The position numbers were made by a program, and so were the translations under genes. A DNA stretch of 64,000 nt from positions 47,223 to 111,222 of the IMG/VR virus record IMGVR_UViG_3300000976_000008. One strand, 5' to 3'. The notes beneath the pieces are model-generated. The model did not search any database, was not told the DNA's origin, and saw nothing but the letters and a program-made list of their open reading frames with translations. This DNA is from a virus. Lineage: Duplodnaviria; Heunggongvirae; Uroviricota; Caudoviricetes. This document shows positions 2,764 through 55,826 of the stretch, piece after piece (position 1 is the stretch's first letter; each line of letters starts with the position of its first letter).

Positions 2764-3641
2764 TAGTCAATAAGCTCCTTAGCTTTCACTACATTCTGTA
2801 TAGGTTCGTTCCAAGTATTACCACCAAGCCCAGAGACGGCTAGAATATCTCCAGCTCTCTCCTGTAAGGTTACAGCTCTTCCCAGAACAGTTTTCACAAT
2901 CTTCTCTGGAAGAGGTAACCAAGCTTCAGCAGTAATCGTTACTTCATATCGTACGTTTGCATGGGTATCATATCCTGATTCTTTATCGCTCGCATCGGTC
3001 GAGCCACCATACTTAATTTGTATATTTCCCTCTAATTTCCCATCAAACATTCTAAATTCTGCTAATGGGTTAAAGCGAATCAGAATTTGATATAAGATAT
3101 ATTCTATGTCACGTTTATGTTCTGCCCATATAGTTAATTGATAATCAACTAACCAAGGAGTAGGTCTGTAAACCTTAGCAACTTGATCACCACGGCTGCT
3201 CAGAAATCGAGCAGTCATAGCATGGAAATTCGGACTAAATTTCTCTTGATTAAATTGATGGCCATCTCTACTAATAGAGGCAACAGGTAATCTTGCTCTA
3301 CCTTGGACAATATCATCATTCCAAATCAAGACACTCTTGTCACCACCAGCAATTTTCACCCTCATGAATCGATAAGAATCTTTGGTTGGAACCCTAATCC
3401 CAGACCAATATTGCTTCATCGCATCATCAAGAGATCTAAATCCGGGCTGTAAGAATTCTTCAAGATGATATGGATACTGAGGAATACCAGCATCAGCCTG
3501 AATTCTATCTCTACCACCCTCTACATGGCTTAATTGTTTCATACCAGGAACAGAACGTAATCCATTCGGCACCTGTTGAGGACCTACCTGATATGCTCCC
3601 TGTTTCGCTGTAAAGTCAGCACCAAATTCATAAACTGGCAT
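2763..3641 (-). CDS. Hypothetical protein, probably virion-associated (tail or neck module)
   Basis: 292-aa ORF in a tight minus-strand array ending at the sheath gene. No family recognised. Confidence 0.35.
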   Translation of the reverse strand: MPVYEFGADFTAKQGAYQVGPQQVPNGLRSVPGMKQLSHVEGGRDRIQADAGIPQYPYHLEEFLQPGFRSLDDAMKQYWSGIRVPTKDSYRFMRVKIAGGDKSVLIWNDDIVQGRARLPVASISRDGHQFNQEKFSPNFHAMTARFLSSRGDQVAKVYRPTPWLVDYQLTIWAEHKRDIEYILYQILIRFNPLAEFRMFDGKLEGNIQIKYGGSTDASDKESGYDTHANVRYEVTITAEAWLPLPEKIVKTVLGRAVTLQERAGDILAVSGLGGNTWNEPIQNVVKAKELID

Positions 3642-3651
3642 TATTGACCAA

Positions 3652-3954
3652 CTATTCTAGCGTCGACAATAGGTCACTCTTGTTATTCAACCCATCAATC
3701 GCTTCACGCACATCTTTTTCAATTTGTTCTCTTTCCTCAGTAGTCTGAATTACTAAAGAACCAGTTATAGCTAATGATCCACCATTAGCAGTAACCCCAC
3801 CAGCAGTAATTTTCAATTCCAAATTAGGAACTTTTTCTGCTAAATGTCGCATTACTCCTTCAGAAATCTTATTCAGAAATCTGTGATTAGAGACAGCGTG
3901 GTGAGATCTGATATTTTTAACCTGATCAGAGACTTTCACGGTAAGCTCCTCCAC
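3652..3954 (-). CDS. Hypothetical protein
   Basis: 100-aa ORF in the structural array. Confidence 0.3.
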   Translation of the reverse strand: MEELTVKVSDQVKNIRSHHAVSNHRFLNKISEGVMRHLAEKVPNLELKITAGGVTANGGSLAITGSLVIQTTEEREQIEKDVREAIDGLNNKSDLLSTLE

Positions 3955-4552
3955 TCTTTATATGTTCTTCAACTGGCATATCCTTTTCAGTTCTGACAGT
4001 GATATCAGCAGTAAGTGCTTCAACCTGACAAGTGTAGTACAACCAGATATACCTGAAATTACCACTTGGAGTAGCATTAGTAATTCTGAATTGACTCGGA
4101 TTCACAGCAACAGCATTATATGGCAAATGCAAGACATCACCAGGTCTCAACATTCTTTCATTAAATCGGCTGTATAATTGTGCATGGCTGAATATTACTT
4201 CATTCTTATGAGATGCCATATCAACACCCCATTTGGTCAATTCTATTTCAATCGGAGCAGGCTTGAAAAAAGCCTTCATACCAATTGGCTGCCAATAAGT
4301 TGGATCAGGATCTTCGTCCCAAACTTCATCAACATCGGCATTCTCAGTCCTTTGATAGACTTGAATATTCGCTCCAGATACATTAATCATCTCATCGGCC
4401 AGTTTTTTGGCCGTAGCAATATCCGCTGAATCTGGATTATCCAGAGCCAGAGCAGTGTTGACTTGCTGGACATCAGTCCTGTTCGAAACAACAGAATCGA
4501 ACACTGACGCATTGACTTGCCCAGTTGTGCTTCCAAAGTTATGAATTGGCAT
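3926..4552 (-). CDS. Hypothetical protein (structural module)
   Basis: 208-aa ORF. It overlaps its neighbour by 29 nt, as expected in an operon. Confidence 0.35.
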   Translation of the reverse strand: MPIHNFGSTTGQVNASVFDSVVSNRTDVQQVNTALALDNPDSADIATAKKLADEMINVSGANIQVYQRTENADVDEVWDEDPDPTYWQPIGMKAFFKPAPIEIELTKWGVDMASHKNEVIFSHAQLYSRFNERMLRPGDVLHLPYNAVAVNPSQFRITNATPSGNFRYIWLYYTCQVEALTADITVRTEKDMPVEEHIKSGGAYRESL

Positions 4553-20085: not shown

Positions 20086-20700
20086 TTATTCTTCGAGAGG
20101 CACGTTCCAGTACATCTCGCTAACAAACTTCTCCCAAGAATCCAACGCAATACCTGAATGGAAAGTTGGTCTCCATTTAGGTCGAATTGGCTCTTTCCTC
20201 AATCTCATTCCGCTCTCTTTGAGAGTTTTTGCAGCTTTGCGATGATTACACTTAATGCACGCAGCGGCACAATTATCCCAAGAAGTAAGACCACCACGTG
20301 ATCGTGGCAGAATATGGTCAATCGTCAAATTGCGAAGACCAGGCTTGATCCCACAATACTGACAAGTTTCTTCATCTCTCTGAAACAAATTCCGTCTACT
20401 AAACGAAAGCGTAGTCTGAGGGAATTTGCTGTAATTAGCCAGTGTAATGACTTCAGGAACACGAAGTTTGAAACCGACACATTGAATGAATAATTCATCC
20501 TCATCGGGCTTCAATTTGGACCAATCATCCCATGCATACTGGCAATAATCATTAGGATCAACAACTTTCGCGTTGTCTGCCCATACTTTCTTCAAAGCGT
20601 CGGCAACTGGAGCTACATCAATAGCCTGCCAGTTCTTGTTCAGGATCAAAGTCGGCCTAGTAAGTGTTGCAGTCATCATTACCTCCATAGTCGAAATCAT
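20086..20700 (-). CDS. HNH homing endonuclease
   Basis: CQYCG...LTIDHILPRSRGG...WDNCAAACIKCNHRK is an HNH core. It sits next to tRNA-Leu. Confidence 0.8.
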   Translation of the reverse strand: MISTMEVMMTATLTRPTLILNKNWQAIDVAPVADALKKVWADNAKVVDPNDYCQYAWDDWSKLKPDEDELFIQCVGFKLRVPEVITLANYSKFPQTTLSFSRRNLFQRDEETCQYCGIKPGLRNLTIDHILPRSRGGLTSWDNCAAACIKCNHRKAAKTLKESGMRLRKEPIRPKWRPTFHSGIALDSWEKFVSEMYWNVPLEE

Positions 20701-20715
20701 CCACTTTAGATTCGA

Positions 20716-21360
20716 CTAAACACTCTCTTTCCAGCAATTGATCCAAGTAATGAGACGCCAATAAAGACGCCAATCACTGATTTTTAATTGAAATCTTCCA
20801 TTCTGACATCTCCCAGACCATTCAATTTTGGATCTGATGTCAGTATTCTCACGCATAGAGATGCTAACATATGGTAACAAATCTTGCCAAAATTTTTTGC
20901 ACTTCACAGGATTGTGATTGCGATAAAATATCACATCCGCTTTCAAATTCTTGATAGTCATTGTTCTCAGTTGATCACAAACTTTTAAAACCAATTGATG
21001 ATCATTATTTGTGATACCAACAACACCTGTGCCTATCTCGCTACTGCCAGAAGCCTTATTCCCTTCACCCCAATAGATTCCCAAGAATCCCATAAAAACA
21101 GGATCAGATTTTAACTCATCCCATCTCGCCCTAGCATCGGCACACACATCTTGAATCCGATTTTCCCAGATTTCTTTAGCTTTTTTGGAACCTGGTAAAT
21201 TGTTGGTTTTCCTAGTATTATTCGTAGTTCCTTTGCAGTGATAAGAAACACTAGATTTAGAACAATTAAGTTCTTTAGCTATTTCTCTAACACTCATCCC
21301 ATTTGCCCGCAATTCTTTAATTCGAGCATTTCTATCTTTGTTCTTTTTCCATTCAGCCAT
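20716..21360 (-). CDS. HTH-domain protein with a possible single LAGLIDADG-like motif
   Basis: The N-terminal HTH is MSVREIAKELNCSKSSVSYH. MGFLGIYWGEGN resembles one LAGLIDADG motif. Confidence 0.35.
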   Translation of the reverse strand: MAEWKKNKDRNARIKELRANGMSVREIAKELNCSKSSVSYHCKGTTNNTRKTNNLPGSKKAKEIWENRIQDVCADARARWDELKSDPVFMGFLGIYWGEGNKASGSSEIGTGVVGITNNDHQLVLKVCDQLRTMTIKNLKADVIFYRNHNPVKCKKFWQDLLPYVSISMRENTDIRSKIEWSGRCQNGRFQLKISDWRLYWRLITWINCWKESV

Positions 21361-21792: not shown

Positions 21793-21820
21793 ATGGAACC
21801 GACGGGATTCGAACCCGCCC
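21793..21820 (-). pseudogene. tRNA 3'-half remnant (T-arm plus 3' acceptor strand)
   Basis: The minus strand reads GGGGCGGGTTCGAATCCCGTCGGTTCCA. No complementary 5' acceptor sequence lies upstream. Confidence 0.3.
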
Positions 21821-21827
21821 CAATCTT

Positions 21828-22088
21828 CTACCTCCAGAAAGCCAGCCTAGCCAAACCTGTTTTCTTCGTCTTCATCATCTCTTTCCGTCGATCGGCGATA
21901 TCTTGGAAGATCTTCATCTCTTCCCGACGATCACGTAGAGAGAGACCAAGCATGTCTTTACGATAATCCGCTCTCTTCGAACTATTCATTCGATACTTAC
22001 ACCAAGCACCGATGCGATTGATGAAATCATGGAGCCACAAGTAGCCCTTCTCATCTTCACGAATCTTATCATCAACTGACGACATCAT
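21828..22088 (-). CDS. Hypothetical protein
   Basis: 86-aa ORF. Confidence 0.3.
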   Translation of the reverse strand: MMSSVDDKIREDEKGYLWLHDFINRIGAWCKYRMNSSKRADYRKDMLGLSLRDRREEMKIFQDIADRRKEMMKTKKTGLARLAFWR

Positions 22089-22115: not shown

Positions 22116-22190
22116 TAGGCGTGGTGAGACTCGAACTCACGTACTCTTCCTTGTAAGGGAAGCTCCATTGCCGCTAGGAACCACACGCCT
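22116..22190 (-). tRNA. tRNA-Val (anticodon UAC)
   Basis: Acceptor AGGCGTG/CACGCCT, anticodon loop CTTACAA, T-arm GTGAG-TTCGAGT-CTCAC. The D-arm register is slightly ambiguous. Confidence 0.7.
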
Positions 22191-22549
22191 CAACTTGGCA
22201 TTCTTTCCAAGATTCTTTGAGCAACCAAAGATCTCGCTTCATCTGTTGGGACCCAATCACCCATCAAATGGGCTGGAATATTATCCCAAGCCTCGACATA
22301 ATCTGTAACTTTATATCCACGATCGTAGCACTCATTTCTGATTTGAATATAACGATCTTTCAGATAACCAAGTTTATCATAGAAAAATTTCACATGACCA
22401 GGACCCAATCGAAATGTCTTTGGCAGATTTTTTACAACCGCCTTCCCAGAATTAATACTGTTAGGCACTCTCTTGATCTCTCTATGTTCAGCAATGAGAT
22501 GCTGCCTACAAAGATCTGAAGGTTTAATACCAGCATTAATTCTTGTCAT
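22190..22549 (-). CDS. denV: Pyrimidine-dimer DNA glycosylase (T4 endonuclease V homolog)
   Basis: MTRINAGIKPSDLCRQHLIAEHREIKRV...GPGHVKFFYDKLGYLKDRYIQIRNEC aligns to T4 DenV [26 protein letters not shown]...[26 protein letters not shown]. Confidence 0.9.
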   Translation of the reverse strand: MTRINAGIKPSDLCRQHLIAEHREIKRVPNSINSGKAVVKNLPKTFRLGPGHVKFFYDKLGYLKDRYIQIRNECYDRGYKVTDYVEAWDNIPAHLMGDWVPTDEARSLVAQRILERMPS

Positions 22550-22575: not shown

Positions 22576-22652
22576 TCACCCAGCCAGGAATTGAACCTGA
22601 ATCTAGCTCCCCATTCGCGGTGAGGATCTCGTGTTACATTACACCACCGGGT
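22576..22652 (-). tRNA. Atypical tRNA with an unassigned anticodon
   Basis: The acceptor CACCCGG/CTGGGTG and the T-arm TCAGG-TTCAATT-CCTGG are clear. The best anticodon hairpin is TCCTCA-CCGCGAA-TGGGGA, which implies GCG (Arg), but C33 and the spacer lengths are non-canonical. Confidence 0.4.
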
Positions 22653-22656
22653 GCGA

Positions 22657-23373: not shown

Positions 23374-23448
23374 TGGCAGGTGTGAGAATCGAACTCACAG
23401 GGGGAATATCTTCCAAACGGCTCATGAGACCGTCCCTACCAGCCTGCC
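23374..23448 (-). ncRNA. Atypical tRNA-like RNA with a CAU anticodon hairpin, no recognisable D-arm and an extra GGAA-GATA-TTCC hairpin
   Basis: Acceptor GGCAGGC/ACCTGCC, hairpin ACGGT-CTCATGA-GCCGT, T-arm GTGAG-TTCGATT-CTCAC. Confidence 0.4.
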
Positions 23449-24473: not shown

Positions 24474-24869
24474 TCATTTGCGGACTCGTTTACGCGATTT
24501 CTTCCTAATTCTTTTCTTCTTTTTGCAATTTCTCTTGCAGTTGTTAATTTTCTTTTTTGGTTCATCCCAATGAAATTTTAAATGACAATTGGAACAAAGC
24601 ACATCACATTTTGCTATCTCTTCCTTCAATTTCTTCAGAGACCAATTCCTAACAGCAAAAGAAATATTTGCTAATTTTTGTTCTGGATCTCTGTGATGGA
24701 ATTGCAAACAAGCCGGGTGGTTTTCTCCACATTTTGAGCATTTACAAGAACTTTTATAACGTCTGAACCAAGCCTTGACTTTATTACGCTGTTCTGAGAC
24801 TCTAAAAACAAAGCCATCATCAGCTTTTAGATTGTGGACTTTCTTATACTTCCGTTGACCTTTGGCCAT
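24474..24869 (-). CDS. HNH endonuclease
   Basis: CKCSKCGENHPACLQFHHRDP...NISFAVRN...LCSNCH is an HNH motif with paired zinc-binding CxxC. Confidence 0.75.
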   Translation of the reverse strand: MAKGQRKYKKVHNLKADDGFVFRVSEQRNKVKAWFRRYKSSCKCSKCGENHPACLQFHHRDPEQKLANISFAVRNWSLKKLKEEIAKCDVLCSNCHLKFHWDEPKKKINNCKRNCKKKKRIRKKSRKRVRK

Positions 24870-25308
24870 TTGTTATTCCTTGGTTCAAAACTCCTACTTT
24901 AGCTTTGAACCAAAGAATAACAAATATCCTATTCAAGGACTGAAAAGCATGTCATTTAATTATACCCCATACCATTACAGAGCAACCGTTGTCAGAATTT
25001 ATGATGCGGACACCATGACTCTCAAAATTGATTTAGGATTCAAAATCAATTTTGAAGAAAATTTCAGAATTCGTGGAATCAATGCACCAGAAGTAAGAGG
25101 ACCAGAAAAGCAAGAAGGAATAATTGCTAGAGACTGGCTCAGAAACAAATGCCAAAATGGATCTCAAGTCTTCATTGAGACCTTCAAAGATAAAAAGGGA
25201 AAGTACGGTAGATACTTAGCCGATGTCTACTTCAAAGAAAATGATGAATTCTTCAGTGTTGCTGATGAACTCGTGAAACTTGGTTACGCAGTTTACAAGA
25301 ATTACTAA
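24862..25308 (+). CDS. Staphylococcal-nuclease-fold (thermonuclease) protein
   Basis: RIRGINAPE is the SNase catalytic-site motif (RLLGIDTPE-like). The start is probably the internal Met at about 24949. Confidence 0.75.
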   Translation: MAICYSLVQNSYFSFEPKNNKYPIQGLKSMSFNYTPYHYRATVVRIYDADTMTLKIDLGFKINFEENFRIRGINAPEVRGPEKQEGIIARDWLRNKCQNGSQVFIETFKDKKGKYGRYLADVYFKENDEFFSVADELVKLGYAVYKNY

Positions 25309-26525: not shown

Positions 26526-26818
26526 TTAACTTTTCAAATTATCAAGGATCAGTGCGATACTGAGTTTTTCTGTATCGCTTCCAGCATCTATTACAACGCC
26601 AAAATTGTCTTTCGAGAATACCCCAAGGATCTAATTGCGATTTTGATCTCGATGGTCTGTAAACTCTGACCATAATCTCGTCAAAATACTGAATCGAATT
26701 CCCTTGGTTCGCTCTTCGTTCTTGTTGTACACGCATAGTAGCACCTTTCAGTTAATTGATAACTAAAAGACGCACCTTCTGCTTTTCATCAAGATCTCCT
26801 GATTAATAGTCATTCGGG

Positions 26819-26940
26819 CGGGACTCGAACCCGCATCAAATGGTGGATTCGAACCACCTTTCCAGCCTTCCGGCCAGCTTGGAACCCAGCCCAAGCCCCG
26901 GCCTTCGCCAGGGGAGTCTCCCAATTCCTCAACCAAACAA
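26819..26940 (-). ncRNA. GC-rich structured element with two consecutive T-arm-like hairpins (tRNA-derived or novel RNA)
   Basis: The minus strand contains GGTGG-TTCGAAT-CCACC followed by GCGGG-TTCGAGT-CCCGC. Neither hairpin has a matching 5' acceptor strand. Local GC is far above the genome background. Confidence 0.35.
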
Positions 26941-26945
26941 CTAAA

Positions 26946-27306: not shown

Positions 27307-27459
27307 TTGGATAGCGGTGCGGAATCGAACCGCAGTCTCTAGTCATCGGCAGGCAATGTCCTCAGAGTTAGCTAACATCCCTAACCTCGTAGTGTTCTTT
27401 CCAGTTGAACTACCGCATGAGCTGACGGAGTGACTTCGAAGCCACTATCCTGATCATCA
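27307..27459 (-). ncRNA. tRNA-like stable RNA of about 153 nt with a 9-bp terminal helix, a canonical T-arm and a large internal insertion
   Basis: 5' GGATAGTGG pairs with 3' CCGCTATCC, just after TGCGG-TTCGATT-CCGCA. An internal hairpin AGTTC-AACTGGAAA-GAACT looks like a D-arm. Confidence 0.4.
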
Positions 27460-27525
27460 ATCTCGTCCTGATGTGTCACCAATCCGAAATTTCACAGTGT
27501 TTTGCCTTAAACTACCGCCCTTAAG

Positions 27526-27597
27526 TGGAAGCGACCGGATTCGAACCGGCAACCACCTGCGTGCAAAGCAGGCACTCTCCCATTGAGTTACGCCCCC
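27526..27597 (-). tRNA. tRNA-Ala (anticodon UGC)
   Basis: Acceptor GGGGGCG/CGCTTCC (with GU pairs), anticodon stem-loop CCTGC-TTTGCAC-GCAGG, T-loop TTCGAAT. Confidence 0.75.
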
Positions 27598-27736
27598 CTA
27601 ATTTATCTCTTTTTGATTCTTTCTGAAGGGTTAGCAGACCGGGGTTTCACCGGCATCTTTCTGATCTTCAACGAGGGGTTTGCAATCCCCAATTTCACAA
27701 ACTGTTTTAATTAAACTACCGCTTTCGCCTTCGAAG

Positions 27737-27851
27737 ATGTGCGGGACGGATTTGAACCGGCGACCTCCTGGTCATGGGAAGTTCATTTTCCACCATCTTA
27801 GTTTCCAAATTCTCCCTCATCAAGTGCTCTGCCTGACTGAGCTACCGCACA
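27737..27851 (-). tRNA. tRNA gene with an insertion of about 41 nt in the anticodon-arm region (intron-like or disrupted)
   Basis: Acceptor TGTGCGG/CCGCACA, D-arm GCTC-AGTCAGGCA-GAGC, variable AGGTC and T-arm GCCGG-TTCAAAT-CCGTC are all canonical. However, 64 nt sit between the D-arm and the variable loop where about 18 are expected. The T-arm is almost identical to that of the adjacent tRNA-Phe. Confidence 0.5.
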
Positions 27852-27856
27852 ATGAG

Positions 27857-27930
27857 TGGTACAGGCCGGATTTGAACCGGCGACCACCTGATTTTCAGTC
27901 AGGCACTCTACCGAGCTGAGTTACTGTACC
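27857..27930 (-). tRNA. tRNA-Phe (anticodon GAA)
   Basis: Acceptor GGTACAG/CTGTACC, anticodon stem-loop CCTGA-CTGAAAA-TCAGG, T-arm GCCGG-TTCAAAT-CCGGC. Confidence 0.8.
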
Positions 27931-49922: not shown

Positions 49923-50369
49923 TTATCCCTTATATGACTCCCACTCAATCTTACGATGTAATTTGCAAAGAGTGTTCTTCTCCGACATCAGAACAACTCT
50001 ATGCCCAGCGTAAGGTGGGCTATCGGAGGCGATTTCCATAATAACGTTCTTACCGAACATCACCACATCGCCAATTTCAAGTTGCGACTTGGTTCGACCA
50101 CCAGCATTATCCGGAAGACCGCATCCAACCCCAACAACAATTCCTTCATTCTTGTATTTAGATTCAGAATCTGGAACAACAATGCTCCCCGAATCATGTT
50201 CGAACACAAGAATAGCAACAAAATCATTCAGACATTCTACTTCGCGAATCTGAACAACTGATCTTGCGTTTGCTTCACCTTCCATTAGAGCAGATGGTGC
50301 GACTGGTGTATCAACTTCTTCCTGAGCATTCAATTTATCAGAGTGATGCTCATTTTGTGGTATAGTCAT
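49923..50369 (-). CDS. GroES-like co-chaperonin with an N-terminal extension
   Basis: GIVVGVGCGLPDNAGGRTKSQLEIGDVVMF...VVLMSEKNTLC resembles the GroES mobile-loop and roof region. This is functionally analogous to T4 gp31. Confidence 0.55.
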   Translation of the reverse strand: MTIPQNEHHSDKLNAQEEVDTPVAPSALMEGEANARSVVQIREVECLNDFVAILVFEHDSGSIVVPDSESKYKNEGIVVGVGCGLPDNAGGRTKSQLEIGDVVMFGKNVIMEIASDSPPYAGHRVVLMSEKNTLCKLHRKIEWESYKG

Positions 50370-50399
50370 ATCGATCCTTTTCCCTTGTGACTCTGATAT

Positions 50400-50636
50400 C
50401 TACTCTTCAGAGTCTGGGGAAAGACTATGCATACCCTGAATCTCATCTATTTCATCCAACTCTACTATTGGATTTTCTATAAACCTAACGTTCGTCTTAC
50501 GTTTCGGCACCGAAGGTGAATTACCAACTTGTACTTGAAATCCGCTTCCATCTTTGGCTAATGTAAACCCAACTCTCTCGATAGTTTTCCGCACAGTTGG
50601 GGATACATCAACATCAATGGCGATTCGTAACTTCAT
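50400..50636 (-). CDS. Hypothetical protein
   Basis: 78-aa ORF. Confidence 0.3.
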   Translation of the reverse strand: MKLRIAIDVDVSPTVRKTIERVGFTLAKDGSGFQVQVGNSPSVPKRKTNVRFIENPIVELDEIDEIQGMHSLSPDSEE

Positions 50637-51973
50637 TACTCTTCTTTCACGTGCATCGTGTTATAATTGATTACACAATCGACTGTTTGATGCTTTGGAC
50701 CATTTCGGTTTTTAGCAATAAACATGCTCAATCGCGGTGGAGTAGCTTTTCTCTGCGAATCGTTCTGATTCAAACTGACAACATAATCAAGAGAGAATTG
50801 CTTTGCAAAACTCTCAGCAGCCTTTGATAAGTCAGCATATCCTTCTTCGGAAGCACCACTACGGTTAGTTTGGGTAGCAGTAAAAACAAGAACATTTTCA
50901 TTTTTGGCTAAACCACGCACTTCGTTAGCAACATGCTTTTGCCGTGTGTAGTCATCCTTATTATAATCAACATTTCTACTGACCATCAAATCCATATAAT
51001 CTAGGATAACAACATCCGGCTTGAAACCTTCTGTTCTTCTCAAATTATCCAGCAAAGCATAGATATGACTAACACTACATTCATCTGGTGGCCACTCAAA
51101 GATGACAAATCTCTTGTTGTACGTCCTCTTCATTTGTTCGACAACCCTATCGACATATGGTTGCCGATCCGCCAAATCGTTCAAAGGTACATCAGTACAT
51201 GCCGCACCAAGGCATCTCATAGCAGTTTTGAGTGTGTCAAGCTCGAAAGTGATTAGTAGAACATCTTGGCCAGGTGTCCCGTCGCGGCCAGTACCCTTCA
51301 ACGAGGATATAGCATTATTACACAACAGAATTGACTTACCAACGTTCGTAGCAGCAAGCCAGCATAAAACCTCTTTGGGAGAAGGACCGCCGTTATTTAG
51401 ATACTTATCAAGTTTGGCAAAACCTGTTGTGCGATGCTCGATAGCATCAGCTTCGAACAATATCTTATAATTATCAAGAAACCAGAAACCTTGTTGACCA
51501 ACATCAGCGATTCTATTCGCCTCATTAACGATAGAATCTAGTTGATCATAATCACCACGTGCATAAGCTTCTTGGGCTTCATCACCGAACAACAAACCAT
51601 AAGCTCTATCTTTCGCCCAGCGTAGGAGAGTTTCCTTAATAATAGGCACTTCTCTTGGATCAGATTGCTTTTCAACAAGCTCTAAGATTCGTTCCCAAGG
51701 GTCATCCTCAGTCATTGAACCAATTAAGCGATCACGTAGCAATGGTCTAGAAGGAACTACGCTGAATTTCTCAAAAGAATTCAGAACTTCAGCTATGATC
51801 CATCGGCATTCCAATGAGCCAAACATTTCCGGCTTCATGAAGCGACCAACAGATGTAAAAAACTCTGGGTGGTCTAAAGCAAGAGATATTATAGATTCTT
51901 CTTCATAAGGACCAAACGGTTTGATTTCGTCATCATCACCCAGTCCCTTTAATCTATCAAGCGTAGTCGCCAT
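50636..51973 (-). CDS. dnaB: Replicative DNA helicase (DnaB / T4 gp41 family)
   Basis: The C-terminal RecA-like domain has Walker A LAATNVGKS and a DnaB-type N-terminal helical domain. Its length of 445 aa fits the family. Confidence 0.85.
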   Translation of the reverse strand: MATTLDRLKGLGDDDEIKPFGPYEEESIISLALDHPEFFTSVGRFMKPEMFGSLECRWIIAEVLNSFEKFSVVPSRPLLRDRLIGSMTEDDPWERILELVEKQSDPREVPIIKETLLRWAKDRAYGLLFGDEAQEAYARGDYDQLDSIVNEANRIADVGQQGFWFLDNYKILFEADAIEHRTTGFAKLDKYLNNGGPSPKEVLCWLAATNVGKSILLCNNAISSLKGTGRDGTPGQDVLLITFELDTLKTAMRCLGAACTDVPLNDLADRQPYVDRVVEQMKRTYNKRFVIFEWPPDECSVSHIYALLDNLRRTEGFKPDVVILDYMDLMVSRNVDYNKDDYTRQKHVANEVRGLAKNENVLVFTATQTNRSGASEEGYADLSKAAESFAKQFSLDYVVSLNQNDSQRKATPPRLSMFIAKNRNGPKHQTVDCVINYNTMHVKEE

Positions 51974-52302
51974 TATCCGTCCAATGTGGGATTCTCACCA
52001 AGAATGCTAATTCTTCTCTGCCTGATGCTATCAAGCTGTCTTTGAGCATTCGCTTCAGCCAAAAGTAAAGCCTCGCCTAAATCGACGAATTCTGCCTCGC
52101 TGAATTGCAAAATAGCACCATTTACGCCAGAACCAAGATGATTCATCGGCCTCTGCATCGAGTTGACGTAAATCGTATAAGTCCAACCATTTAAGCCGCG
52201 AGTAACACCACTAATAGTCACGGCTTCCAGATGTCCTAGAGCTGCTGATTCTTTCAAATACAGAGTGTCTTTGACATCATACAATGGTGGTTCAATCGAC
52301 AT
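51973..52302 (-). CDS. Hypothetical protein
   Basis: 109-aa ORF lying between recA and dnaB. Confidence 0.3.
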   Translation of the reverse strand: MSIEPPLYDVKDTLYLKESAALGHLEAVTISGVTRGLNGWTYTIYVNSMQRPMNHLGSGVNGAILQFSEAEFVDLGEALLLAEANAQRQLDSIRQRRISILGENPTLDG

Positions 52303-53428
52303 CGTCTAAAATCTCCGAAGTATCAAGGGTAGACTCTTGGGGGATCTTTCTCCTATCCCTTGCTCTAGTTTTCTTCTCTTCAATTGCATCAAAAAGACCA
52401 GCGTATATTTGGTTCTTAAGCGTATTCAATGTCTCTTCGTCTTCTCTCAAAGCAGCAGCTGCCTTTGCTATGCCATTCCCCAAACTCTTACCATCAAGAC
52501 TAATAAAATTCCCCTTTCTAGTCAATATGTTGTATTCCAGACCAATATCTATAAATGATTGAACAGTATCAATCCCAGATACAGGATTACCACTATAGAT
52601 AAAGTATTCTGCCTCGGCAAAAGGCTTACCACCCACTTTGGTCTTAATAATCTTAGCCTTAGGACTAAATCCTTGTACCTCTCCGCCATCGTTAATTTTA
52701 GAGCCTTTGTTTACTTGAATCCTAACAGACGCAGCAAATTTCAATGCCTTGCCACCAGGAGTGGTAGTAGGATCACCAAACATCACTCCAATCTTTTCTC
52801 TAGTTTGGTTAATGAAGATCAAAGTGCATTGGTTCTTATTGACTTCTTTATATAATTTACGCATTGCTTGGCTCATCATGCGAGCTTGAGCACCGACATG
52901 ATGATCGCCAATTTCGCCTTCCAATTCAGCTTTGGGGATTAGTGCGGCAACAGAGTCAACCACAATGAGATCAACAAGACCACTAGCTGCCAATTTCTCA
53001 GCAATCTGCAGAGCCTGCTCACCATAATCTGGTTGCGAGAATAACAAATTGTCCCAATCAACACCAATCAACTGTGCCCAAGTAGGATCGACAGCATGTT
53101 CAGCATCAACAAATGCCGCAACCCCATGACGACCCTCTTCCCCTTTTTCTTTGAAGAAATGCTTCTGGCAAGATGCTACAATATGAAGACATAAAGTTGT
53201 TTTTCCACAGCTCTCCGTGCCAAATATTTCCATAATCCTGCCTTGAGGAACTCCACCACATCCCAAAGCTCTATCAAGAGAAGCAATACCAGATGGGAAA
53301 ACATCCACATCAACAATAGCTTCTGCACCCATAATAATAGAATTCTCGCCATACTGAGAATCTATTTGTTGTAATAGACCAGAAATAGATTCTGGTTTAG
53401 GAGCTTTCTTTTTTTGTGCTTTTGCCAT
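52292..53428 (-). CDS. recA: RecA recombinase (bacterial type)
   Basis: The protein is co-linear with E. coli RecA from SLDRALGCGGVPQGRIMEIFGTESCGKTT through AFVDAEHAVDP, SQPDYGEQALQIAEKLAASG, VVDSVAAL, AQARMMSQAMRKL and IFINQTREKIGVMFG. Confidence 0.95.
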   Translation of the reverse strand: MAKAQKKKAPKPESISGLLQQIDSQYGENSIIMGAEAIVDVDVFPSGIASLDRALGCGGVPQGRIMEIFGTESCGKTTLCLHIVASCQKHFFKEKGEEGRHGVAAFVDAEHAVDPTWAQLIGVDWDNLLFSQPDYGEQALQIAEKLAASGLVDLIVVDSVAALIPKAELEGEIGDHHVGAQARMMSQAMRKLYKEVNKNQCTLIFINQTREKIGVMFGDPTTTPGGKALKFAASVRIQVNKGSKINDGGEVQGFSPKAKIIKTKVGGKPFAEAEYFIYSGNPVSGIDTVQSFIDIGLEYNILTRKGNFISLDGKSLGNGIAKAAAALREDEETLNTLKNQIYAGLFDAIEEKKTRARDRRKIPQESTLDTSEILDDVD

Positions 53429-53693
53429 TGGATAAATTCCCTAGATTCTTTATGATCTTTTCAATGCTGTAGTCAGCTATTTTTAACACATCCGCAGCCG
53501 GTATCTTTATGACCACATTGTTCTGTACCACCAACAATTCATCATTGCCAATCGCCGCAGTCACAGACCATATTCCAGAAGGAGTTGGATTACTAGCATT
53601 TTCTCCAGATGGTGGAGCAGATAAATAGGAAACCCGACGAGTTGTGACCAATCGAACTTGATCGAAGATTCCAATTTTCGTTGAATTGTCCAT
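53397..53693 (-). CDS. Hypothetical protein upstream of recA
   Basis: 98-aa ORF that overlaps the recA start. Confidence 0.3.
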   Translation of the reverse strand: MDNSTKIGIFDQVRLVTTRRVSYLSAPPSGENASNPTPSGIWSVTAAIGNDELLVVQNNVVIKIPAADVLKIADYSIEKIIKNLGNLSNGKSTKKESS

Positions 53694-53744
53694 CAGTAAT
53701 CACTCTTCGTTCAAAACTAATTATGAGTCCTATGGAGAAACAAC

Positions 53745-54287
53745 ATGGCATTGAGTAAAACAGAATTATTAATAGCTGAAGCTGTCGGATCGATGCTGAA
53801 GCAAGATGCGATGCTGGGGCTATCAGTACATTCCTCAGATCATGAGGAAATGGGATCTACAGAAAGAGGCTATGAATATCTACATGGCCAAATCGACGAC
53901 ATGTTTCAAGTGAAGGCAGCAGAATTGGTACACGCCGAAAGTGTTTGCCAAGCCTTCAGATCTGTCCATAATTACAAATATGTCGATGATCCAAGCTTTC
54001 TAACCGCTATGGAAAAACAAATGGTCGCCCAAGCGGTACCGGCAGAAGATCGGCAGAAAGCAAGTGGGTTTGTTCCAACAATCATCAAAGAATTGAAAGC
54101 GGAACAGGCAGAATGGGCAGAAAAAGATTTTGGATTCAATCCGAAGCTAAACGAAATCAGAGAGCACAGTAAACCAGATCAGCCACTAGACTTCAACATC
54201 GAAGAGGTAGACGGTTGGCCAACTAAAGCCAATGTCGAGTGGGATAAGGGCAACGCAAGCCCAGGTAGAATCTCTGAAAACGAATGA
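53745..54287 (+). CDS. Hypothetical acidic protein (opposite strand)
   Basis: 180-aa plus-strand ORF. Confidence 0.35.
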   Translation: MALSKTELLIAEAVGSMLKQDAMLGLSVHSSDHEEMGSTERGYEYLHGQIDDMFQVKAAELVHAESVCQAFRSVHNYKYVDDPSFLTAMEKQMVAQAVPAEDRQKASGFVPTIIKELKAEQAEWAEKDFGFNPKLNEIREHSKPDQPLDFNIEEVDGWPTKANVEWDKGNASPGRISENE

Positions 54288-54526
54288 AACTCCGCCAAAT
54301 AACAGAAAATCTGTTAACACAACAGATGCGGGGCCAATTCCTAAAATCAAGCTCTTATGTCTACAGACCATTCCTAAGAGCAGATATGCTATATAATCCC
54401 CAAGGTGGTAGTGACTTTGGGACTAGAATAAATAGTAGCATATCGTCAGCATCTGGAGTCCCAACAAAACCCAGAAATAGGCAATATCTTGGAATGGAAA
54501 ATCGACCAGGGTCCATCAGACTCTAA
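54284..54526 (+). CDS. Hypothetical small protein
   Basis: 80-aa ORF coupled to the previous gene. Confidence 0.25.
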   Translation: MKLRQITENLLTQQMRGQFLKSSSYVYRPFLRADMLYNPQGGSDFGTRINSSISSASGVPTKPRNRQYLGMENRPGSIRL

Positions 54527-55344
54527 TAAGTCGAGATAAGTCCTTGCCCATCACATTTAGGGCAGTCTATCGTTTCACCAGCATTTTTCAGCCGACCGAC
54601 ACCACGGCACATTGGGCAATTAACCGTGGTGTTTGAATATCCATTCCTAGCAAAGTTTGGCACTTTATTTTGATGAATTGAGTCATCTGCCATCTTTTTG
54701 AAACGGTCTTGAAGAGTTCTATCATTTTCTTTATTTGAAACCCTAATGCGGGTTGTGCCGGTCCCATCCACACGCTTTTCTGGAATAGCAATAGGCATAC
54801 CTTCTCGTGCCTCAACCATCGCCATCTTAGCCTTGCCTTGCAATAATTCTGGCGACAAAACATCCTCATTACCTGATACAACATGAGAGCTATGGGAAGA
54901 AACAGCACCCATGGAGGTAGATCCACCCACAGATTGCATTCCAGAATTTCCGTCGATAACAGATGTCGATACTACATCAGGATCAGCAATATCCATGACT
55001 TCGCCTGACGGCGTTTTTGGAACCTCAGTTATAAGAGTTGGCGTAGGCTTTGGCGTTTCCGCTTTTTGCTCCTGAGGAGCCATAGTGACTAAAGAATTAC
55101 CACTAGCTGGTGCCAATTCAAAACCCATCGCTTTTGCTTGGGCTAAAAATTCTTCAACTTTCTTCTGTTTGACTATATATGCTTCTCGCACAGTCTTTAT
55201 AGTAGCATCTTCGGCATGCTCGTCGCAAATATCGACAGAAACTTTAGCATCATCAACAGTGATTATCATCTCATTGTTGAGATTACTTGTGGTCTCGCAA
55301 AATACACATTGTTTCATCATAATCCTCACAAACTCACAGAACAC
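54523..55344 (-). CDS. Zinc-finger protein with DnaJ-type CxxCxGxG repeats
   Basis: The N-terminus has CVFCE...CDEH. The C-terminus has CPMCRGVGRL...CPKCDGQG. Confidence 0.4.
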   Translation of the reverse strand: MFCEFVRIMMKQCVFCETTSNLNNEMIITVDDAKVSVDICDEHAEDATIKTVREAYIVKQKKVEEFLAQAKAMGFELAPASGNSLVTMAPQEQKAETPKPTPTLITEVPKTPSGEVMDIADPDVVSTSVIDGNSGMQSVGGSTSMGAVSSHSSHVVSGNEDVLSPELLQGKAKMAMVEAREGMPIAIPEKRVDGTGTTRIRVSNKENDRTLQDRFKKMADDSIHQNKVPNFARNGYSNTTVNCPMCRGVGRLKNAGETIDCPKCDGQGLISTY

Positions 55345-55394
55345 ATAGACGTGTTAGTAAATATACTAAGCATCCTGGAAATCGAGTAATCCAA

Positions 55395-55826
55395 ATGACT
55401 AAAGTATCTATCATAGAAGTAGATCTCGGCTTACGCATCAGTGACATCATAAAAGATGACGTCATTGCTCTAACGGGTGCCGCACAAGTTCAATTGACTG
55501 AAGCGATTGCTGAAAGAAAACAAATCGAAAAGGTCAAAATAGAAAGATCCAATGCAAAAAAGAAAGCCAGCGACAAAATAGTAAATGCTCTCACAAAGGC
55601 ATATGAAGCATTAGAAGAAGCTGCAAAAAATGGTGATGGTGTAACCGTTGAAACAATTATGGAAATCATAGACGGAGCAGTACCAAATACTTCAGCATTC
55701 ACCTTAAGAATGAAAAAATTCCTGAAGGACAAAGACAACCCATATATGATCACTAGGAAGAAGATCTCAAAAGTGGCACATTATTTCTTTGAGGCTTTCA
55801 ACGAAGATCCTCAAGAATCGCCATAA
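55395..55826 (+). CDS. Hypothetical protein (opposite strand)
   Basis: 143-aa ORF. Confidence 0.35.
   Translation: MTKVSIIEVDLGLRISDIIKDDVIALTGAAQVQLTEAIAERKQIEKVKIERSNAKKKASDKIVNALTKAYEALEEAAKNGDGVTVETIMEIIDGAVPNTSAFTLRMKKFLKDKDNPYMITRKKISKVAHYFFEAFNEDPQESP

What the first reader, a model, noticed from the sequence alone, without database searches (positions are those of the whole stretch)
27737..27851. tRNA gene with a roughly 41-nt insertion in the anticodon arm
Acceptor stem, D-arm, variable loop (AGGTC) and T-arm are all canonical, and the T-arm is nearly identical to that of the neighbouring tRNA-Phe. However, 64 nt separate the D-arm from the variable loop. The extra piece contains a GGAA-AATGAAC-TTCC hairpin. 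It is too short for a group I intron. It could be a small non-canonical intron, a mini insertion element or a recently disrupted paralog of tRNA-Phe.
Basis: seen in the sequence. Interest (0 to 1): 0.6.

Follow-up and report, generated by a model that had tools for sequence, protein, structure and literature searches.

The report
tRNA mimics with kinked extra arm
The flagged gene is real, but it is probably not a broken or intron-bearing tRNA: it is one of four neighbouring tRNA-shaped RNAs in a large phage's tRNA array whose anticodon loop is replaced by a conserved kink-turn-like joint carrying a hairpin, so they most likely do not decode codons; their role is unknown.

Summary
On the minus strand, 27851..27737 has a perfect 7-bp acceptor stem, a D arm, an AGGTC variable loop and a T arm that matches tRNA-Phe at 23 of 24 bases. 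It carries 41 extra bases (27819..27779) where the anticodon loop should begin. ARAGORN and Rfam do not call it. An independent assembly reproduces the sequence exactly.

It is not unique. Three more elements of the same design sit in the same tRNA array: E2 27725..27630, E3 27521..27421 and E4 27419..27310. In all four, a 3-4 bp remnant of the anticodon stem leads into an internal loop that fits the kink-turn consensus. A hairpin of unrelated sequence follows.

Across the four copies, 80 of 88 stem positions pair. Of 22 pair columns, 11 changed on both sides. No shuffle out of 5000 reached this level of pairing.

The insert is not a bulge-helix-bulge intron or a group I intron, and it is not repeated elsewhere in the window. 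I found no homologue in any collection searched.

Best reading (about 0.5): a small family of non-decoding tRNA-scaffold RNAs, matured like tRNAs, presenting a protein-binding kink-turn hairpin. Rivals are decaying pseudogenes (0.25) and a new kind of intron (0.1). The function is inferred, not shown.

The parts
27737..27851 (-). E1, the flagged tRNA-like element (115 nt including the discriminator U)
   Evidence: Segment table. Missed by ARAGORN and Rfam.
27845..27851 (-). E1 acceptor stem, 5' strand (UGUGCGG). It pairs 7/7 with 27738-27744 (CCGCACA).
27826..27842 (-). E1 D arm: GCUC / AGUCAGGCA / GAGC, with G18G19 present
27821..27824 (-). E1 remnant of the anticodon stem, 5' strand (CUUG). 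It pairs with 27767-27770 (CAGG). This is the non-canonical (NC) helix of the kink-turn-like motif.
   Evidence: It resembles tRNA-Phe CCUGA/UCAGG.
27817..27820 (-). E1 non-bulged strand of the kink-turn-like loop: A-U-G-A. GA is followed directly by the C helix. E1 has one extra base here compared with E2-E4.
27777..27816 (-). E1 C helix (GGGAG/CUUCC) and apical hairpin, 40 nt
   Evidence: Fold. The first 3 bp are paired in all four elements, with different sequences.
27771..27776 (-). E1 bulged strand of the kink-turn-like loop: CAU (3-nt bulge), GA, C. Together with 27777-27778 (CC) it forms CCCAUGA, the relic of a 7-nt anticodon loop.
27779..27819 (-). The 41 nt that are surplus relative to a tRNA. 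Deleting them gives a sequence that ARAGORN calls tRNA-Met(cat).
27745..27766 (-). E1 variable loop AGGUC and T arm GCCGG/UUCAAAU/CCGUC (C50.U64 mismatch)
   Evidence: 23/24 identical to tRNA-Phe.
27630..27725 (-). E2, sister element. The loop relic UUGAAGA keeps the Phe anticodon GAA. The T loop (UGAAACC) and D loop are degenerate. The acceptor has 5 bp and is extended by an outer helix GAAGG/CCUUC.
27421..27521 (-). E3, sister element with the cleanest kink-turn consensus: CUG-U-GA-AAUUUCG on one strand and CGAGAUU-GAU-GA-U-CAG on the other. The apical hairpin has z = -4.45.
27310..27419 (-). E4, sister element. It has canonical D and T loops, and its acceptor has 4 bp (6 bp with one bulge).
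27856..27930 (-). tRNA-Phe(GAA), 4 nt upstream of E1. It is the closest canonical relative of the E1 T arm and anticodon stem.
27525..27597 (-). tRNA-Ala(UGC), lying between E2 and E3. The array order is Phe-E1-E2-Ala-E3-E4, with spacers of 1-32 nt.

Best explanation
E1 is one of four tandem, tRNA-derived RNAs that no longer decode.

Shown:
- Each keeps the tRNA acceptor, D and T framework.
- In each, the anticodon loop is replaced by an internal loop that fits the kink-turn consensus, followed by a 25-40 nt hairpin whose sequence differs in each copy.
- The kink-turn fit is: remnant anticodon stem as the NC helix; a non-Watson-Crick 3b.3n position; tandem G.A/A.G; a 3-nt bulge on the 3' strand; then a Watson-Crick C helix.
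- All helices are kept by compensatory changes.

Inferred:
- The elements are transcribed with the tRNA array and cut out by RNase P and the 3' processing enzymes, like their neighbours. CCA is added afterwards, because no tRNA here encodes it.
- The tRNA body acts as a processing and stability chassis. The kinked arm is a handle for a protein, from the host or from the part of the phage genome outside this window.

Most likely role (speculative): a non-translating tRNA look-alike that binds or diverts a factor acting on tRNAs or on kink-turn RNAs during infection.
For: Anatomy of the four elements.

Covariation:
- 80 of 88 stem cells are paired.
- 11 of 22 pair columns changed on both sides. 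This includes the two helices that flank the GA.AG core: C helix GGG/UCC, AAU/GUU, AAU/AUU, GGU/GCC; NC helix G-C to A-U in E4.
- Partner shuffles average 66.8 +/- 2.7 paired cells, and 0 of 5000 reach 80.

Conservation of the core: both GA dinucleotides and bulge position L2 (A) are invariant, while the neighbouring positions and the apical sequences vary.

E1 keeps the tertiary-core bases of a tRNA.

Packing: spacers of 1-32 nt inside a same-strand tRNA array.

Apical hairpins fold (E3 z = -4.45).

No tRNA or other Rfam family is matched, and no ribozyme or group I model hits.

The sequence is reproduced by a second assembly.
Against: - All the evidence comes from one genome and four paralogues, which are not independent. 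The motif scanner was designed from these same elements.
- No homologue was found anywhere.
- Signs of decay: the E1 T stem has a C.U mismatch; E2 and E3 have abnormal T loops; E2 lacks G18G19; the E2-E4 acceptors have only 4-5 bp.
- E1 itself has an extra base at 3n, so its kink-turn is the least canonical.
- The two GA steps could be left over from a duplicated anticodon loop (UGA...UGA) rather than selected.
- No L7Ae-type protein was found in the window (using query sequences recalled from memory).
- There are no expression data.
Confidence: 0.5

Rival explanations
1. Decaying pseudogenes. An ancestral tRNA (Phe-like) suffered an insertion in its anticodon loop, was duplicated three times, and the copies are drifting without function.
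For: Defects in the stems and loops of E1-E4: a C.U mismatch in the E1 T stem, a 6-nt T loop in E3, a non-canonical T loop and no GG in E2, and short acceptors. The deleted forms of E2-E4 are not recognised as tRNAs. The flanking UGA(AA) and UGAWGA look like a duplicated loop. There are no homologues elsewhere.
Against: 91% of stem cells are still paired at 53-79% scaffold identity. Half of the pair columns changed on both sides. The helix on the insert side of the loop is maintained with unrelated sequences. The GA bases are invariant while their neighbours vary. The elements keep the exact spacing of processed tRNAs.
Confidence: 0.25
2. Intron-containing tRNA genes. The roughly 26-41 nt insert is removed by an unknown endonuclease and ligase pair, perhaps guided by the kink-turn. 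This would give tRNAs with anticodons CAU (E1), GAA (E2) and GAU (E3, E4).
For: Deleting 41 nt from E1 gives a sequence that ARAGORN calls tRNA-Met(cat). The 3' side of each insert ends in a 7-nt loop-like sequence. E2 and E3 have U33 and a purine at position 37 there.
Against: There are no opposed 3-nt bulges separated by 4 bp, because here the bulges sit on the wrong strands. The insert is far too short for group I and has no Rfam intron hit. The E1 and E4 products would have C33. The 31.39 pair would be broken in all four. The replication genes are of bacterial type (RecA, DnaB, Pol III alpha), so an archaeal splicing enzyme is not expected. The window already has Met, Phe and Ile(GAU) tRNAs.
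Confidence: 0.1
3. A small mobile hairpin element, or some other DNA-level signal (for example a promoter), that happens to lie in tRNA-like genes.
For: Short TGA...TGA flanks and imperfect inverted ends GGGAG/CUUCC. A weak TTGATG-17-TAAGAT promoter-like match lies inside the E1 insert. I saw this by eye, and it is below the scanner's threshold.
Against: There is no second copy of the insert in the 64 kb window. The inserts of the four elements share ancestry and position rather than sequence. The RNA-level pairing covaries.
Confidence: 0.05

Closest known systems
Phage T4 species 1 and species 2 stable RNAs (rnaC, rnaD)
   Same: They are small non-tRNA RNAs encoded inside a phage tRNA cluster, on the same strand, a few bases from the tRNAs. 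rnaC carries a canonical T arm (annotation and sequence). From established knowledge, they are cut from the tRNA precursor, and their function remains unknown.
   Different: There is no sequence similarity beyond the T loop. They have a different architecture (139 and 119 nt). I saw no kink-turn-like loop replacing an anticodon loop.
Archaeal pre-tRNA-Trp, whose intron carries a box C/D (kink-turn) guide RNA
   Same: An insertion in the anticodon arm of a tRNA that contains a box C-like (UGAUGA) and box D-like (xUGA) kink-turn. This comparison rests on my own knowledge.
   Different: The archaeal case is flanked by a bulge-helix-bulge, is spliced, has a second C'/D' pair and guide sequences, and depends on L7Ae, Nop5 and fibrillarin. 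None of these was found here, and the host is bacterial.
Engineered 'tRNA scaffold' for recombinant RNA (cargo hairpin inserted in place of the anticodon loop)
   Same: The design principle is the same: a tRNA body gives processing and stability, and a foreign hairpin replaces the anticodon loop. This comparison rests on my own knowledge.
   Different: That is a laboratory construct. Here the design is natural, present in four copies, and has a conserved kink-turn-like joint.
Other tRNA mimics: the tmRNA tRNA-like domain and bacterial Y-RNA-like YrlA
   Same: They use acceptor/T-arm mimicry without decoding. Weak YrlA and tmRNA hits arise here only from T and D arms.
   Different: Their topologies differ (YrlA is permuted, tmRNA has an mRNA module). 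The scores are far below the gathering thresholds.
Group I introns in bacterial and phage tRNA anticodon loops
   Same: An interruption in the anticodon region of a tRNA gene.
   Different: Group I introns are about 200 nt or longer and have a P1-P9 core. This insert is 41 nt and has no Rfam hit.

Membership tests
Canonical tRNA (Rfam RF00005 / ARAGORN cloverleaf) | 7-bp acceptor stem, D arm, T arm and the tertiary-core bases | tested here: met
   E1 has acceptor 7/7, D 4/4 and T 4/5, with U8, A14, G15, G18G19, A21, C48 and the T loop UUCAAAU. E2-E4 meet this only partly.
Canonical tRNA (Rfam RF00005 / ARAGORN cloverleaf) | 5-bp anticodon stem closing a 7-nt loop with U33, and detection by tRNA models | tested here: not met
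   59 nt occupy the place of 18. There is no call from ARAGORN or Rfam. The loop relic CCCAUGA has C33.
Bulge-helix-bulge (archaeal/eukaryal-type) tRNA intron | Two 3-nt bulges on opposite strands separated by a 4-bp helix at the splice sites | tested here: not met
   Tested by inspecting the pairings. The 3-nt bulge lies on the 3' strand next to the outer helix, and the 5' strand has 0-1 unpaired base. This is the mirror image of the required layout, and the central helix has 0-3 bp.
Bulge-helix-bulge (archaeal/eukaryal-type) tRNA intron | Exon joining gives a functional anticodon arm | tested here: inconclusive
   E1 minus 41 nt is called tRNA-Met(cat), but it has C32, C33 and an A31.C39 mismatch. 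E2-E4 minus their inserts are not called.
Group I intron in a tRNA | A ribozyme core of about 200 nt or more (P1-P9) | tested here: not met
   The insert is 41 nt. There is no intron or ribozyme hit even at E <= 10.
Kink-turn (k-turn) RNA motif | C helix, 3-nt bulge, tandem G.A/A.G, non-Watson-Crick 3b.3n, NC helix, in the strand order of Kt-7 | tested here: met
   E2, E3 and E4 fit exactly. E1 fits with one extra base at 3n. The -1b.-1n pair is Watson-Crick in all four. The consensus was recalled from the Kt-7 and box C/D literature, not taken from a tool.
Kink-turn (k-turn) RNA motif | A sharply kinked geometry, and binding by an L7Ae-family protein or a tertiary contact | not testable with these tools
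   This needs FRET, gel or crystal data. No L7Ae, YbxF or YlxQ homologue was found among the window ORFs, but about 340 kb of the contig is unseen.
Box C/D guide RNA | Box C (RUGAUGA) and box D (CUGA) forming the kink-turn | tested here: inconclusive
   E3 has UUGAUGA with GUGA, E4 has CGAUGA with ACGA, E2 has UGAAGA with GUGA, and E1 has CCAUGA with AUGA. These are similar to the boxes, not exact.
Box C/D guide RNA | A second C'/D' pair and 10-12 nt guides complementary to a target | not tested
   No second box pair is evident. E3 has an internal GA/GA 2x2 loop. I did not search for guide targets.
T4 rnaC/rnaD-type stable RNAs | Encoded within a phage tRNA array at tRNA-like spacing | tested here: met
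   The order is Phe-E1-E2-Ala-E3-E4 with spacers of 1-32 nt.
T4 rnaC/rnaD-type stable RNAs | Sequence or structure homology to rnaC/rnaD | tested here: not met
   blastn-short finds only 7-nt chance words for E1-E4.
tRNA pseudogene | Loss of structural constraint (unpaired stems, no compensation) | tested here: not met
   80/88 cells are paired, 11/22 columns are compensated, and 0/5000 shuffles reach the observed value. Some local defects exist.
Miniature insertion element | Several dispersed copies with terminal inverted repeats and a target-site duplication | tested here: not met
   There is no other copy in the window. The TGA flanks are ambiguous.

The most novel reading that the evidence does not exclude
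A previously undescribed class of phage RNAs: natural 'tRNA-scaffold' RNAs that ride the tRNA maturation pathway and present a kink-turn hairpin in place of the anticodon. They would serve as a protein-binding decoy or adaptor in the contest over the host's tRNA and translation machinery. An even more unusual sub-case is not strictly excluded: a kink-turn-marked intron at position 31/32 that is removed by a new splicing system.
Probability: 0.3. Interest if true: 0.75.

Novelty: new variant of a known kind. Interest (0 to 1): 0.55.

Why it matters
Phage tRNA clusters have been known for fifty years to hold stable non-tRNA RNAs of unknown role, such as T4 species 1 and 2. A family whose design can be read from the sequence would be a concrete and testable example of a virus reusing the tRNA fold for something other than decoding. 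Here that design is a tRNA chassis, a kink-turn joint and a variable hairpin.

It also matters for annotation. Standard tRNA finders miss these genes, or mislabel them when introns are allowed. Counts of tRNAs, 'introns' and pseudogenes in large phages could therefore be wrong.

If a partner protein exists, it would be a kink-turn RNP in a bacterial virus.

Tried and rejected
Searches that found no relative:
- Megablast and blastn of the region against 50,697 phage records gave no match, or only tRNA-Ala.
- Six DNA-pattern scans of IMG/VR and one of GTDB genomes returned nothing or chance hits in coding DNA.
- The neighbouring 607-aa ORF has no relative in IMG/VR or in 5.8 billion proteins, apart from itself.
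- The exonuclease 4.8 kb away gave 113 related loci at 68% identity or less. None has an E-like element by BLAST, by ARAGORN with introns or by my own motif scanner. In 1.48 Mb the scanner found only window E1-E3 and one probable false hit shared by two identical loci. Reversed sequences gave 5 distinct hits.

Readings considered and rejected:
- A hammerhead: CUGAUGA-like words are present, but no GAAA follows stem II.
- Sarcin-ricin or other GA motifs.
- A class II tRNA with a long variable arm.
- ARAGORN's Thr(ggt) intron solution.
- A micro-ORF or promoter inside the insert.

Other attempts:
- A covariance model was not built, because MAFFT could not place the 3' strand of the motif correctly. 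I computed the pair counts directly instead.
- Literature searches found no earlier description.

Full report
**Context**

The window is phage-like. It has mostly minus-strand small ORFs. It encodes an SbcD-like exonuclease and an HNH endonuclease and a DenV-type glycosylase. It also encodes RecA, DnaB, a gp32-like protein and Pol III alpha- and Pol A-like polymerases. A protein search places it on a 408,349-bp JGI contig with no close relative.

ARAGORN finds 14 tRNAs, all on the minus strand, between 14.9 and 28.7 kb. None of them encodes CCA.

**Checking the observation**

The minus strand 27851..27737 reads:

UGUGCGG-UA-GCUC-AGUCAGGCA-GAGC-A-CUUG-AU-GA-GGG[34 nt]UCC-CAU-GA-C-CAGG-AGGUC-GCCGG-UUCAAAU-CCGUC-CCGCACA-U

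- The acceptor stem pairs 7/7 and the D stem 4/4.
- The T stem pairs 4/5, with a C.U mismatch.
- The bases that build the tRNA elbow are all present.
- The T-arm region matches tRNA-Phe, four bases upstream, at 23 of 24 positions.
- The stem remnant CUUG(A)/(C)CAGG is two transitions away from the Phe stem CCUGA/UCAGG.

Fifty-nine bases lie where a tRNA has 18, a surplus of 41. Default ARAGORN and the Rfam tRNA model do not call the element. With introns allowed, ARAGORN forces an implausible Thr(ggt). Removing 27819..27779 produces a sequence that ARAGORN calls tRNA-Met(cat). A second assembly (Logan, run SRR2835677) is identical over 20,360 bp covering the element.

**The element is not alone**

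The gaps between the annotated tRNAs hold three more elements of the same build:

| Element | Coordinates (minus strand) |
|---|---|
| E1 | 27851..27737 |
| E2 | 27725..27630 |
| E3 | 27521..27421 |
| E4 | 27419..27310 |

The array reads Phe-E1-E2-Ala-E3-E4, with spacers of 4, 11, 32, 3 and 1 nt.

All four share GCGG-UA-G at positions 4-10, a 4-bp D stem and a T arm. All four have an insertion at exactly the same place, between the 5' strand of the anticodon stem and a 7-nt relic of the anticodon loop:

| Sequence | 7-nt loop or loop relic |
|---|---|
| tRNA-Phe | CUGAAAA |
| E2 | UUGAAGA |
| E3 | UUGAUGA |
| E4 | CCGAUGA |
| E1 | CCCAUGA |

The inserts keep residual homology in two pairs (E1 with E4, E2 with E3). 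The insertion therefore predates the duplications.

**The conserved joint**

In every copy, the 5' strand reads [3-4 nt stem][1-2 nt][GA][helix]. The 3' strand reads [helix][3 nt][GA][1 nt][stem].

This is the layout of a kink-turn as I recall it from Kt-7 and box C/D:
- an NC helix;
- a non-Watson-Crick 3b.3n position (here U.U, U.U, C.C and, in E1, C opposite AU);
- tandem G.A/A.G;
- a 3-nt bulge (GAA, GAU, GAU, CAU);
- a Watson-Crick C helix.

E3 is the cleanest example: CUG-U-GA-AAUUUCG on one strand and CGAGAUU-GAU-GA-U-CAG on the other. E1 deviates by one extra base. The hairpins beyond the joint fold (E3 z = -4.45), but they have unrelated sequences and lengths.

**Selection or decay**

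I counted the pairs over the 22 stem columns: acceptor 7, D 4, NC 3, C 3 and T 5.
- 80 of 88 cells are paired.
- 11 columns changed on both sides while keeping a pair.
- This includes the three C-helix pairs (GGG/UCC, AAU/GUU, AAU/AUU, GGU/GCC) and an NC pair.
- Shuffling partners among the copies gives 66.8 +/- 2.7 paired cells, and none of 5000 shuffles reaches 80.

The four GA bases are invariant while their neighbours vary. This argues for maintained structure.

Against that, there are local defects: the E1 T-stem mismatch, a 6-nt T loop in E3, a non-canonical T loop and no G18G19 in E2, and acceptors of 4-5 bp in E2-E4. The four copies are paralogues, so the evidence is not independent.

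**What it is not**

- *Bulge-helix-bulge intron.* The bulges sit on the wrong strands, and the replication genes are of bacterial type.
- *Group I intron or any Rfam ribozyme or family.* No hit, even at permissive thresholds on 591 bases.
- *Dispersed mini-element.* The insert has no other copy in the 64 kb window.
- *Homologue of T4 rnaC/rnaD.* No similarity.

The short UGA...UGA flanks may be the scar of an ancient duplication of the loop. With these data, that origin cannot be separated from present function.

**Search for relatives**

Nothing similar turned up in any of these searches:
- 50,697 phage records;
- IMG/VR pattern scans;
- GTDB genomes (chance hits only);
- 113 loci around the related exonuclease from IMG/VR and metagenomes.

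The nearest relatives share 68% exonuclease identity or less, and their tRNA arrays are unrelated in sequence. No L7Ae-type protein was found in the window. The small ORFs around the array have no informative Pfam hit. Four literature searches found no earlier description.

**Most likely mechanism**

*Shown:* a four-member family of tRNA-framed RNAs with a conserved kink-turn-like joint and a variable hairpin in place of the anticodon loop, embedded in a tRNA array.

*Inferred:* co-transcription with the tRNAs; excision by RNase P and 3' processing; CCA addition; an L-shaped body whose long arm is kinked; and no decoding. Decoding is unlikely because there is no 7-nt loop, and E1 and E4 have no U33.

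From memory, 3b.3n pairs such as U.U fold poorly in Mg2+ alone. That suggests a protein partner.

*Speculative:* a decoy or adaptor role in the conflict over host tRNAs. Phage tRNAs are already thought to counter tRNA-targeting defences (PMC10264068, title and abstract). The design is the natural counterpart of the laboratory 'tRNA scaffold'.

**Verdict**

The finding is real and more interesting than a single broken tRNA, but it rests on one genome.

| Reading | Probability |
|---|---|
| Functional mimic family | about 0.5 |
| Decaying pseudogenes | about 0.25 |
| New kind of intron | about 0.1 |
| DNA-level or mobile element | about 0.05 |
| Unassigned | remainder |

Novelty: a new variant of a known kind (non-tRNA RNAs in phage tRNA clusters, tRNA mimics). 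Interest: 0.55.

Noticed in passing
window 26805-26945 (minus strand): E5: a structured RNA of about 140 nt directly after tRNA-Pro. A long closing stem encloses four hairpins, two of which are perfect T-arm look-alikes (GGUGG-UUCGAAU-CCACC and GCGGG-UUCGAGU-CCCGC). MFE is -65.5 kcal/mol with z = -2.5. ARAGORN with introns mislabels part of it as Pro(ggg). It has no Rfam family.
   Followed up: partly
window 23375-23448 (minus strand); L011 7340-7411; L014 5867-5938: E6: an odd tRNA-like gene next to tRNA-Gln. It has a 6-bp acceptor, a CUCAUGA anticodon loop (CAU), no D stem and an extra GGAA/UUCC arm. Rfam gives only a weak tRNA-Sec hit (25 bits). Its T arm is identical to that of an equally odd 'tRNA-Met(cat), anticodon at position 29-30' in distant relatives. 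A conserved non-canonical CAU tRNA may exist in this phage group.
   Followed up: partly
window 21795-21850 (minus strand): E7: an isolated T-arm-like hairpin (GCGGG-UUCGAAU-CCCGU) at the end of ORF 21828-22088. It has a weak match to the 3' end of tmRNA (12 bits).
   Followed up: no
L011 about 3950-4240 (minus strand); also L014 about 3060-3170, L072, L075: Relatives carry tRNA-like genes, missed by ARAGORN, just 3' of their tRNA arrays. These have a 7-bp acceptor, an encoded CCA, a GNRA-capped long extra arm and, in one case, a 6-bp D stem. They resemble Sec or allo-tRNAs (class II).
   Followed up: no
window 22576-22653 (minus strand): tRNA-Arg(GCG) scores only 37 bits against the Rfam tRNA model, against 52-74 bits for the other 13 tRNAs. 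It is an unusual tRNA.
   Followed up: no
window 27726-27736 and 27620-27629 (minus strand): The E2 acceptor is extended by an outer helix GAAGG/CCUUC, formed by its leader and trailer. The E1-E2 spacer contains the palindrome CUUCGAAG. This may affect how E2 is processed.
   Followed up: no
window 20086-21360, 22190-22549, 24862-25308: The tRNA island also carries an HNH endonuclease, an HTH protein, a DenV-type pyrimidine-dimer glycosylase and, on the plus strand, a staphylococcal-nuclease-like ORF.
   Followed up: partly
window 27780-27822 (minus strand): Inside the E1 insert there is a weak sigma-70-like match (TTGATG, 17 nt, TAAGAT). There is also a 26-codon ORF that starts at AUG 27793 (minus strand) and runs into E2. 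Both are probably chance.
   Followed up: no
window 12190-32549 and 50292-55428: A Logan assembly of run SRR2835677 (contig SRR2835677_168, 155,232 bp) is 100% identical to the window over these stretches. The same phage genome has therefore been assembled twice. The longer 408 kb JGI contig was not retrievable.
   Followed up: yes
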